Assembly (NCBI GenBank): GCA_965372925.1
Contig: CBDVEE010000001.1
Span: forward strand, 1-35,188
DNA: 35,188 nt
Direction of reading: 5' to 3'
Source of the DNA: an uncultured archaeon
GTDB lineage: Archaea > Nanobdellota > Nanobdellia > Pacearchaeales > GW2011-AR1
Of this stretch, positions 13,701 to 14,461 are shown one piece after another. The notes below the pieces were generated by a model. The model did no database searches, was not told the DNA's origin, and worked only from the letters and a program-made list of their open reading frames with translations. The position numbers were made by a program, and so were the translations under genes. The stretch's first letter is position 1. Every line of letters begins with the position of its first letter.

Positions 13701-14153
13701 ACTCCTAAAAGTAGTCGGCTTTTCCAATTTAGTCTTCTCCTGAATAATTGAACAATGTGGACATTTTTTTCCGTCCTTTGCCTTCTTAATTCTACCAATC
13801 AAATCTTTAGCCAAATCCTTTTCGTCTTTAATTAAAACTTTACCACATGCCTCACAGGTGCTTCGAAGAACTAAATCAATAATAGGCAAATATTTAATGT
13901 GAACAACTGGTCTCGCAAATTCGATTATACCAGGATGACCCAAGCACTCTTTCAATCGCCCACCACAAGTTCGACACCTGACACCTGGATCAATCGCACC
14001 AAGCCTCAAATCCATCAACCCACCGTCGACAGGATAACCATCAACATCATAAAGTTCTGGTGTCACAATCTTCGCAACACTCAATTTCTTAATCTGCTCA
14101 GGGCTAAGCAAAGAAAATCCTATCTCCTTAATTTGTTTTCTAACTGGTTTCAT
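10743..14153 (-). CDS. rpoA: DNA-directed RNA polymerase largest subunit, unsplit A'-A'' fusion (1136 aa)
   Basis: The N-terminal Zn motif is [14 protein letters not shown]. The catalytic motif is [10 protein letters not shown] (about 12832-12861). The A''-type trigger-loop region [30 protein letters not shown] (about 11700-11790) is in the same uninterrupted ORF. Confidence 0.95.
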   Translation of the reverse strand: [1136 protein letters not shown]

Positions 14154-14461
14154 TTTAAATTTAACACCCTACACGGACATTTATTATAATTTCCTGAACA
14201 ATATTCGTCAAACCACATTGCACTTTTTCGCGATTCAGCACAAATTGGTAATTCTAAACAAAGTTTCTCCATAGAATACCCAGTATTATTAATCGGATAT
14301 ATTACTCCCCTATAATCTAATCCTTCCAAAAATTCCTCAAACTCCACAAGTCCATCCAAAACATGTCTACCTGTATTAGAAACAAAATTTAGACCATCTC
14401 CTCTATGAAGATGCTTCAAAATCTGTACAATTTGATTATTAATTATATTATTTCCCATCAT
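14150..14461 (-). CDS. Hypothetical 103-aa protein with a C-terminal Cys cluster, inserted between rpoB and rpoA
   Basis: ATGA overlaps occur at both ends: with the rpoB stop at 14458-14461 and with the rpoA start at 14150-14153. Strand bias matches the neighbours. I recognise no family motif. Confidence 0.6.
   Translation of the reverse strand: MMGNNIINNQIVQILKHLHRGDGLNFVSNTGRHVLDGLVEFEEFLEGLDYRGVIYPINNTGYSMEKLCLELPICAESRKSAMWFDEYCSGNYNKCPCRVLNLK

What the first reader, a model, noticed from the sequence alone, without database searches (positions are those of the whole stretch)
14150..14461. Unassigned 103-aa Cys-containing gene translationally wedged between rpoB and rpoA
The rpoB-rpoA junction is one of the most conserved gene adjacencies in archaea. 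Here a 103-aa ORF (MMGNNIINNQIVQILKHLHRGDGLNF...CLELPICAESRKSAMWFDEYCSGNYNKCPCRVLNLK) sits exactly between them, with ATGA stop-start overlaps on both sides. It must therefore be co-transcribed and probably co-translated with the two largest RNAP subunits.

Both RpoB (its C-terminal Zn ribbon is present) and RpoA (its canonical N-terminus is present) look complete, so it is not a split-off piece of either. It has five Cys in the last 40 residues but no CxxC pairs of the TFS/RpoM/Spt4 type, and I recognise no family. It is a candidate lineage-specific RNAP-associated factor or subunit, or a selfish insertion exploiting a highly expressed operon.

It is one of three such ORFans inserted into core operons in this window; the others are at 8340-8858 and 32989-33321.
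Basis: partly seen in the sequence, partly recalled or inferred. Interest (0 to 1): 0.65.

Follow-up and report, generated by a model that had tools for sequence, protein, structure and literature searches.

The report
Small four-cysteine gene between rpoB and rpoA
A real but dispensable 103-residue gene of a previously undescribed four-cysteine protein family sits between the two largest RNA polymerase genes of a DPANN (Pacearchaeota-like) archaeon, at a junction that is a hotspot for small inserted genes in this group.

Summary
A 103-codon ORF (14150-14461, minus strand) overlaps the rpoB stop and the rpoA start by ATGA on each side. It matches no Pfam, NCBIfam, PHROG, PADLOC or PDB entry.

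It is not an orphan. At least 17 small proteins share a core C-x5-8-C-x8-21-C-x6-C with the motif YPxNxTGYSxEKLC...FDxYCSG. Fourteen lie in the same rpoB|rpoA slot; three lie between Sec61beta and NAC. It evolves under relaxed purifying selection (omega 0.36, against 0.05-0.06 for rpoB and rpoA).

It is dispensable at this locus. Only 7 of 79 species-level relatives carry the family there, and a relative with 91% rpoB nucleotide identity has the ancestral 'TAA-A-ATG' junction.

The slot is an insertion hotspot. 29 of 79 relatives hold more than 100 nt there, against 3 of 74 at rpoH|rpoB. These inserts are almost always filled by unrelated, unannotated same-strand ORFs, and sister genomes carry unrelated inserts.

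Best reading: an accessory, probably metal-binding small protein, translated by termination-reinitiation, whose frame and 3' Shine-Dalgarno-like sequence are also constrained by rpoA expression. An essential RNAP subunit is excluded; a dispensable RNAP-associated factor is not. Structure prediction was unconfident and no RNA data exist.

The parts
14150..14461 (-). 103-aa gene of the four-cysteine family, with ATGA overlaps at both ends
   Evidence: ORF and sequence; homologues and conserved core; dN/dS 0.36
14174..14296 (-). Conserved C-terminal core (aa 56-96): YPINNTGYSMEKLC68LELPIC74AESRKSAMWFDEYC88SGNYNKC95. The four conserved Cys make a putative metal site or two nested disulfides.
   Evidence: Alignments A2-A5. 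C74 and C88 are invariant; C68 and C95 are present in at least 90% of members. hhalign between the subgroups covers all four Cys.
14297..14461 (-). Variable N-terminal part (aa 1-55). It holds two predicted helices, aa 4-20 and 31-46. Each is deleted in one or another close orthologue.
   Evidence: L001 lacks aa 6-33; L086/P0003 lacks the middle helix; secondary structure
14458..14461 (-). ATGA overlap: the rpoB stop codon TGA and the ORF start ATG
14150..14153 (-). ATGA overlap: the ORF stop codon TGA and the rpoA start ATG
14165..14170 (-). AGGGTG, a Shine-Dalgarno-like element inside the ORF's last codons (R98-V99), 11 nt upstream of the rpoA ATG. It corresponds to the conserved C-terminal K/R-V-L motif of the family.
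   Evidence: sequence; an SD-like 4-mer is present in 19 of 29 occupied junctions and 0 of 43 empty ones.
14458..17718 (-). rpoB (unsplit, 1086 aa), the upstream partner in the coupling
10743..14153 (-). rpoA (A'+A'' fused, 1136 aa), the downstream partner in the coupling

Best explanation
The ORF encodes a soluble, mildly acidic small protein. It has two dispensable N-terminal helices and a conserved C-terminal domain of about 45 residues, held by four conserved cysteines (C68, C74, C88, C95). These most likely form a Cys4 metal (zinc) site.

It belongs to a previously undescribed family restricted to Pacearchaeota/Woesearchaeota-like DPANN archaea. The gene is an accessory, repeatedly lost passenger. 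It sits in an insertion hotspot, the rpoB|rpoA junction, which is flanked by about 3.3 kb of highly conserved sequence on each side.

It is expressed by termination-reinitiation. Ribosomes ending rpoB at TGA restart at the overlapping ATG. Ribosomes ending the ORF restart at the overlapping rpoA ATG, helped by an SD-like AGGGTG inside the ORF's last codons.

Because rpoA translation now runs through it, nonsense mutations or imprecise deletions would be polar on rpoA. This protects the open frame and lets the insert persist even if the protein gives only a modest benefit. The protein-level function is separate and is not a core transcription function; its partner is unknown.

Shown: the gene, the family, the conserved Cys, the purifying selection, the patchy distribution, the hotspot and the SD enrichment.

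Inferred: metal binding, coupled translation, and persistence through polarity on rpoA.
For: - ATGA overlaps on both sides.
- Family of 17 members: 14 in rpoB|rpoA and 3 in Sec61beta|NAC.
- Homologues score E 1e-18 to 7e-5 against 1.84 billion proteins. hhalign between the close and distant subgroups gives probability 93.9%, E 1.6e-7, across all four Cys.
- Against L001: ORF dN 0.18, dS 0.51, omega 0.36. rpoB omega is 0.045 and rpoA 0.063.
- Of 79 species-level loci, 43 have a gap of 6 nt or less, typically 'TAA A ATG', and 29 have a gap over 100 nt. In 25 of those 29, same-strand ORFs cover at least 96% of the gap.
- Only 7 of 79 loci carry this family, scattered across the RpoB/RpoA tree among empty junctions.
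- L007 (rpoB 90.6% nt identity) has an empty junction. A co-occurring relative in run X2 also lacks the ORF.
- The control junction rpoH|rpoB exceeds 100 nt in only 3 of 74 loci (Fisher p = 2.7e-7).
- Sister genomes carry unrelated gap DNA.
- An SD-like 4-mer lies upstream of rpoA in 19 of 29 occupied junctions and 0 of 43 empty ones (p = 1.7e-10).
- The proteins are hydrophilic, pI mostly 4.4-6.5, with no transmembrane segment or signal peptide.
- Coupling by termination-reinitiation at overlaps or very short spacers in archaea is established (PMC6728339, PMC10666635).
Against: - There is no direct evidence of expression: no RNA runs were found.
- Metal binding is inferred only from four conserved Cys. 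The spacing fits no known zinc-finger class. One member (P0009) has lost C68 and C95 together while keeping C74 and C88, which would fit two nested disulfides as well as a metal site.
- The AlphaFold model is unconfident (pLDDT 55.7).
- 14 of 17 members are in the RNAP slot. This is also what an RNAP-linked function would predict.
- Only the junction was surveyed in relatives. Genomes with an empty junction could carry a copy elsewhere.
- No transfer mechanism was found, so many independent precise losses or gains must be assumed.
Confidence: 0.5

Rival explanations
1. A dispensable, lineage-specific RNAP-associated factor. It could be an assembly or zinc-delivery chaperone for the Zn sites of RpoB and RpoA, or a clamp-binding modulator. 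It would be made in step with the two large subunits because it is encoded between them.
For: - 14 of 17 family members lie exactly between rpoB and rpoA, in lineages whose RpoB C-terminal identity ranges from 62-69% to 100%.
- Both sides carry coupling overlaps.
- Overlapping pairs often encode subunits of one complex (PMC10666635).
- The core is under purifying selection.
- The slot is far more often occupied than the neighbouring rpoH|rpoB junction.
Against: - The family is absent from the junction in 72 of 79 species, including close relatives.
- Unrelated unannotated ORFs fill the same slot in 22 other species, and sister genomes differ completely.
- Three members sit between Sec61beta and NAC.
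- Amino-acid divergence is about tenfold faster than in the flanking genes.
- There is no similarity to any known RNAP subunit or transcription factor.
Confidence: 0.27
2. A pure relay ORF. The inserted DNA stays open only because rpoA translation depends on ribosomes arriving from rpoB. The peptide has no function; it would be a by-product or an early-stage de novo gene.
For: - 25 of 29 occupied junctions are almost fully covered by same-strand ORFs that start at the rpoB stop and end at the rpoA start.
- All of these ORFs lack Pfam hits.
- Some inserts are built from simple tandem repeats.
- SD-like sequences are embedded in the ORF 3' ends.
- The conserved C-terminal K/R-V-L motif coincides with AGGTG.
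Against: For this family the amino-acid sequence is conserved far beyond openness of the frame. The four Cys and the YPxNxTGYSxEKLC / FDxYCSG motifs persist while synonymous sites are saturated. The same core is also kept in a second genomic slot.
Confidence: 0.1
3. An actively mobile selfish cassette that targets tightly coupled junctions of highly expressed core genes, in the manner of homing elements or morons.
For: - Two different slots are used, both tight junctions of core genes.
- Distribution across the tree is patchy.
- GC is lower than in the flanks.
- Cassettes turn over between sister genomes.
- A repeat-bearing insertion with target duplication lies next to a family member in L094.
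Against: - There are no flanking direct or inverted repeats at the window locus.
- There is no nuclease, integrase or transposase, and at 103 aa the protein is too small to hold one.
- There are no relatives on viral contigs.
- The three Sec61beta|NAC members form one subfamily, so a single translocation is enough to explain them.
- The flanks show no recombination mosaic between the window and L006.
Confidence: 0.1
4. A spurious ORF: a chance open frame in AT-rich, skewed sequence.
For: Skewed composition produces several stop-free runs of 100 or more codons in non-coding frames of rpoB and rpoA.
Against: It occupies a true intergenic insert that is absent in relatives. 0 of 20000 shuffles stay open. 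It has significant homologues and omega is below 1.
Confidence: 0.01

Closest known systems
Translationally coupled overlapping gene pairs (ATGA/TGATG) using termination-reinitiation in archaea (PMC6728339, PMC10666635)
   Same: There are 4-nt ATGA overlaps on both sides. The empty junctions of relatives have a 1-nt spacer or an overlap. The flanking genes encode subunits of one complex.
   Different: Here a third, unrelated and dispensable gene is threaded into the coupled pair. It acts as a relay and carries an SD-like element for the downstream gene.
Accessory-gene integration hotspots flanked by conserved core genes (bacterial pangenome hotspots; phage 'morons').
   Same: A fixed site between conserved genes holds different unrelated cargo in related genomes, with rapid turnover and lower GC.
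   Different: The cargo is one to four tiny ORFs (30-140 aa) inside an essential operon. They are always co-oriented and in translational continuity with the neighbours. No integrase, tRNA or repeats are present.
Lineage-specific small archaeal RNAP subunits (Rpo13, Rpo8/RpoG) and small Zn-binding subunits or factors (RpoP/Rpo12, RpoN/Rpo10, Spt4, TFS)
   Same: Small size, cysteine content and a link to RNAP genes.
   Different: There is no sequence or profile similarity. There are no CxxC knuckles. The gene is not uniformly present in the lineage. The known subunits are not encoded between rpoB and rpoA.
Small zinc-finger micro-proteins of archaea (CPxCG type, e.g. in Haloferax). This comparison rests on my own knowledge.
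   Same: Both are proteins of up to 100 aa with four Cys that are presumed to bind metal, and most are of unknown function.
   Different: The Cys spacing is C-x5-8-C ... C-x6-C, without a CPxCG or CxxC motif. The predicted local structure is helical, not a zinc ribbon.
CHCH (twin Cx9C) helical-hairpin proteins
   Same: Two Cys pairs are arranged C1..C2 / C3..C4 on short helices. P0009 has lost C1 and C4 together while keeping C2 and C3, which is the nesting expected for C1-C4 and C2-C3 pairs.
   Different: The spacing is x5-8 and x6, not x9. The organism is an archaeon from anoxic sediment and the protein is probably cytoplasmic. There is no sequence similarity.

Membership tests
Essential or core archaeal RNAP subunit | Present throughout the lineage | tested here: not met
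   The family is found at the junction in only 7 of 79 species-level relatives. The close relative L007 has an empty junction. Only the junction was surveyed, not whole genomes.
Essential or core archaeal RNAP subunit | Homology to a known Rpo subunit | tested here: not met
   No Pfam, NCBIfam or PDB sequence or profile hit. Foldseek gave 0 hits, but the model was of low confidence.
Essential or core archaeal RNAP subunit | Physical presence in purified RNAP | not testable with these tools
   This needs pull-down or proteomics. Multimer co-folding was not available.
Zinc-ribbon factors (TFS/RpoM, Spt4, RpoP) | Two CxxC (or CxxC/CxxH) knuckles | tested here: not met
   No CxxC in the window protein. 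The conserved pattern is C-x5-C-x13-C-x6-C.
CPxCG-type small archaeal zinc fingers | CPxCG motif pairs | tested here: not met
   The motif is absent from all 17 members.
Free-standing homing endonuclease or mobile element | Nuclease or transposase domain | tested here: not met
   No domain hit in Pfam, PHROGs or PADLOC. The protein is only 103 aa.
Free-standing homing endonuclease or mobile element | Terminal repeats or target-site duplication | tested here: not met
   No direct repeats, and only one weak 14-nt inverted repeat, around 13950-14650.
Termination-reinitiation coupled gene pair | Co-oriented genes with a stop/start overlap (-4 or -1) or a spacer of a few nt | tested here: met
   ATGA overlaps at 14458-14461 and 14150-14153. 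Actual coupling was not measured.
New 'four-cysteine junction protein' family (defined here) | Core C-x5-8-C-x8-21-C-x6-C, with (Y)PxNxT[GA]YSxE[KN]LC and FDxYCSG in the close subgroup | tested here: met
   The window protein is the seed. HMMER E-values are 1e-18 to 7e-5. hhalign to the distant subgroup gives probability 93.9%.
Cys4 metal-binding domain | Bound Zn or Fe-S cluster | not testable with these tools
   Only the conservation of four Cys is shown. The model is too unconfident to judge geometry.

The most novel reading that the evidence does not exclude
The rpoB|rpoA junction of Pacearchaeota-like DPANN archaea acts as a nursery for new proteins. rpoA translation depends on ribosomes handed over from rpoB. 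Any DNA that lands in the junction or expands there therefore survives only as an open, co-oriented reading frame that is translated at RNAP-subunit levels.

This would explain the dozens of unrelated small proteins found in the slot. One of them, the four-cysteine family, would have matured into a conserved metal-binding partner of the RNA polymerase, that is, a lineage-specific accessory subunit or assembly factor.
Probability: 0.15. Interest if true: 0.75.

Novelty: new variant of a known kind. Interest (0 to 1): 0.5.

Why it matters
DPANN archaea have tiny genomes, and the RNAP operon is regarded as one of their most rigid parts.

Two things follow from this result. First, it names a protein family, currently annotated only as 'hypothetical protein', that can be expressed and tested for metal and RNAP binding. 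Second, about a third of species carry fast-turning-over, translationally threaded small genes between rpoB and rpoA. This gives a natural system for asking how translational coupling constrains inserted DNA, and perhaps how it promotes new genes.

If the family does bind RNAP, it would be a new lineage-specific archaeal transcription component. If it does not, it is a clear warning against inferring function from operon position.

Tried and rejected
**Sequence and profile searches**
- Pfam, NCBIfam, PHROGs and PADLOC scans of the protein, and of all 16 family members against Pfam: nothing significant.
- PDB sequence and profile search: only noise, E at least 0.08.
- The three large hits (P0006, P0013, P0014) are repeat proteins that score by summing weak repeats. 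I rejected them.
- A profile search of the 5.8-billion-protein set with 17 seeds returned only proteins already known from the loci.
- No paralogue of the family in the window; the other two unannotated ORFs are unrelated.

**Structure**
- AlphaFold2 with 2 sequences gave pLDDT 40.6; with 16 sequences, 55.7.
- Foldseek against PDB gave 0 hits. The model is too poor for this to mean anything.

**Wider collections and expression**
- Viral contigs: no relative.
- Metagenome contigs: one extra locus only, L094, which encodes P0011.
- RNA runs: none, so expression is untested.
- Literature searches for a DPANN or Pacearchaeota small protein between rpoB and rpoA found nothing relevant.

**Alternative readings of the region**
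- RNA element: no Rfam hit, fold z = 0.08.
- Split piece of RpoB or RpoA: rejected, because the termini are identical in relatives without the insert.
- Recent recombination mosaic in the flanks between the window and L006: none seen.
- L011, L029, L034 and L071 have Cys-containing junction ORFs. They are not significant against the core HMM and were not counted as members.
- Programmed frameshift fusing RpoB, the ORF and RpoA: considered, but there is no supporting signal and I did not pursue it.
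Full report
**1. What is in the sequence**

The region is a minus-strand operon with the classical archaeal order:

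- rpoH, 17720-17914
- rpoB, 14458-17718, unsplit, 1086 aa
- the ORF, 14150-14461
- rpoA, 10743-14153, 1136 aa, carrying Rpb1 domains 1-5, so A' and A'' are fused
- an L30e-like gene, 10513-10746
- a short nusA-like KH gene, 10086-10547
- rps12
- rps7
- an unannotated 172-aa ORF
- EF-2

It shares ATGA with the rpoB stop (14458-14461) and with the rpoA start (14150-14153). Five Cys lie in the last 36 residues, and none forms a CxxC. GC drops to 0.30-0.33 over the ORF, against about 0.40 in the flanks.

No composition-preserving shuffle of the ORF interior stays open (0 of 20000). The skewed composition does give other long open frames in non-coding frames of rpoB and rpoA, so ORF length is not the main argument for a real gene. 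There is no Rfam match and no excess RNA structure.

**2. It is a gene, and it has a family**

A search of 5.8 billion clustered proteins found one relative, P0002: 77 aa, 67% identical, and in the same slot in L001/L006.

An exhaustive HMMER search of 1.84 billion representatives, using the two-sequence profile, found nine more small proteins, P0003-P0005 and P0007-P0012, with E from 1.4e-18 to 7e-5. It also returned three repeat proteins, which I reject as artefacts.

The shared core is (Y)PxN[ND]T[GA]YSxE[KN]LC-x5-C-x13-C(SG)-x6-C.

A survey of the rpoB|rpoA junction in 80 GTDB species of Pacearchaeota, Woesearchaeota and Nanoarchaeota turned up further junction ORFs with the same Cys pattern: L022 (second ORF), L031, L035, L043, L047 and L062.

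- The seed HMM, built without these ORFs, ranked them top among all junction ORFs.
- hhalign between the close and the distant subgroup gives probability 93.9%, E 1.6e-7, over 35 columns containing all four Cys.
- C74 and C88 are invariant. C68 and C95 are missing only in P0009, which has lost both together.

Against the L001 orthologue, the ORF has dN 0.18, dS 0.51 and omega 0.36. The flanking genes give omega 0.045 (rpoB) and 0.063 (rpoA). The ORF is therefore under purifying selection, but its amino-acid sequence evolves about ten times faster than its neighbours.

The N-terminal half is modular. L001 lacks the first helix and L086 lacks the second, while the core is always kept.

The proteins are hydrophilic, mostly acidic, and have no transmembrane segment or signal peptide. 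Public records that name any of them call them 'hypothetical protein'.

**3. Where the family sits**

| Slot | Members |
|---|---|
| rpoB\|rpoA (14) | window, P0002, P0003, P0004, P0005, P0009, P0010, P0012, P0015-P0019, L062 |
| Sec61beta\|NAC (3) | P0007, P0008, P0011 |

- Evidence for the rpoB|rpoA slot.
- The three Sec61beta|NAC members form one subfamily. They again show start/stop overlaps with their neighbours.
- The window holds no paralogue of the family.
- No relative was found on viral contigs.

**4. The junction is a hotspot and the gene is dispensable there**

Among 79 species-level loci:

- 43 have a gap of 6 nt or less, typically '...TACGAA TAA A ATG', which is the ancestral-looking state.
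- 7 have a gap of 7-100 nt.
- 29 have more than 100 nt, up to 970 nt.

In 25 of the 29 long gaps, at least 96% of the gap is covered by one to four co-oriented ORFs. These start at or overlap the rpoB stop and end at or overlap the rpoA start.

These ORFs belong to many unrelated groups, and none has a Pfam or PADLOC hit. Sister genomes (L067/L074 and L011/L012) carry unrelated gap DNA. Some inserts are built from short tandem repeats.

The four-cysteine family occupies 7 of the 79 junctions. These are scattered over the RpoB/RpoA tree, between empty junctions. By rpoB nucleotide identity the window is 93.4% identical to L006, which carries the gene, and 90.6% identical to L007, whose junction is empty. 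A co-occurring relative in the same sediment sample also joins rpoB directly to rpoA.

As a control, the neighbouring rpoH|rpoB junction exceeds 100 nt in only 3 of 74 loci (Fisher p = 2.7e-7).

Occupied junctions carry an SD-like 4-mer 4-18 nt upstream of the rpoA ATG in 19 of 29 cases; empty junctions do so in 0 of 43 (p = 1.7e-10). In the window this element is AGGGTG, inside codons R98-V99. It coincides with the family's conserved C-terminal K/R-V-L.

**5. How it most likely works**

*Expression.* The ATGA overlaps are the standard substrate for termination-reinitiation, which is documented in archaea and needs overlaps or very short spacers (PMC6728339, PMC10666635). I infer that rpoB ribosomes restart on the ORF and that ORF ribosomes restart on rpoA, helped by the embedded SD-like element.

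*Consequence.* A stop codon or an imprecise deletion in the insert would be polar on rpoA. This explains why nearly all inserts are open, co-oriented frames, and it gives inserts a way to persist.

*Protein.* For this family the peptide itself is selected. It has four conserved Cys and conserved motifs, omega is below 1, and the core is retained in a second slot. A Cys4 metal site on short helices is the simplest reading for a cytoplasmic protein of an anaerobe. Two nested disulfides (C68-C95 and C74-C88) remain an alternative, suggested by the paired loss in P0009.

*Structure.* Prediction stayed unconfident (pLDDT 40.6 with 2 sequences, 55.7 with 16), and Foldseek found nothing. The fold is therefore unknown.

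*RNAP.* An essential subunit is excluded by the distribution. A dispensable RNAP-associated factor remains the main rival (about 0.27). In its favour, the family is strikingly faithful to this slot. Against it are the hotspot behaviour, the Sec61beta|NAC members and the fast evolution.

*History.* Vertical descent with many precise losses cannot be separated here from repeated transfer. The flanks show no mosaic between the window and L006, and the window locus has no repeats or mobility genes.

**6. Comparison with what is known**

- It works like a translationally coupled operon member.
- Its site behaves like an accessory-gene hotspot flanked by core genes.
- It fails the defining tests for zinc-ribbon factors, CPxCG fingers, known Rpo subunits and homing endonucleases; details are in the membership table.
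- The family itself is undescribed.
- I found no paper reporting small genes between rpoB and rpoA in DPANN archaea.

**7. Verdict**

The ORF is a real, conserved but dispensable gene of a new small four-cysteine family. It lies in an unreported insertion hotspot inside the RNAP operon. I rate it a new variant of known kinds (small Cys4 proteins; core-flanked hotspots; coupled gene chains), with interest 0.5.

Function and expression remain to be shown. The decisive experiments are listed separately.

Noticed in passing
window 10743-14153 (-): rpoA is a single 1136-aa gene with Rpb1 domains 1-5, so A' and A'' are fused. rpoB is also unsplit. The related loci with called genes have the same 1134-1136-aa rpoA.
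   Followed up: partly
window 8340-8858 (-): A 172-aa ORF with a TTG start lies between rps7 and EF-2 and has no Pfam or PADLOC hit. In the close relative L001, the same slot holds four different ORFs with no family hit (46, 130, 60 and 246 aa). This is a second variable slot inside the same conserved gene string.
   Followed up: partly
window 32989-33321 (-): A 110-aa ORF with no family hit is wedged between the RFC small-subunit gene (33321-34319) and the RFC large-subunit gene (31791-33071), overlapping both. It is not related to the four-cysteine family.
   Followed up: partly
L094 668-929: Next to a Sec61beta|NAC-slot family member, a 191-nt insertion duplicates the NAC ribosome-binding site, start codon and first 13 codons. 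This creates an extra ORF that starts like NAC. The insert carries G-rich repeats (GGGGGGTTCAC...) that recur at 1733-1777 in the contig.
   Followed up: partly
L013 3897-4046; L016 2700-2858; L015 3897-4247; L069 3917-4021: Some rpoB|rpoA junction inserts are made of short tandem repeats. Examples are the GCATTCG 7-mers and ACACGGAC(A/T)AAC units that encode 'TRTNTDEHGF', and a repeated 'RDKTTHYAYAL' unit in L069. This suggests local repeat expansion as one source of junction ORFs.
   Followed up: partly
L091 279-995: In one relative the junction holds three genes: two small predicted membrane proteins (91 and 80 aa) followed by the four-cysteine gene (62 aa). L022 and L043 also have two ORFs in the slot.
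   Followed up: no
window 10513-10746 and 10086-10547 (-): The L30e-like protein is only 77 aa, with a weak L7Ae/L30e hit (E 0.004). The NusA-like protein is a 153-aa protein with KH domains only. Both are reduced versions, as expected in DPANN archaea.
   Followed up: no
window 18405-19451 (-): A fused nucleotide-kinase-like (AAA_18) and dCMP/cytidine deaminase gene (348 aa) lies upstream of the RNAP operon and is conserved in relatives. A tRNA lies at 18127-18201 (+), between it and rpoH.
   Followed up: no
window 9000-18000: There is strong negative GC skew (-0.3 to -0.5) on the plus strand across the whole operon, so the coding strand is G-rich over C. This produces many long spurious open frames on the antisense strand, such as 13899-14189 (+) and 14405-14563 (+), which overlap the ORF.
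   Followed up: no
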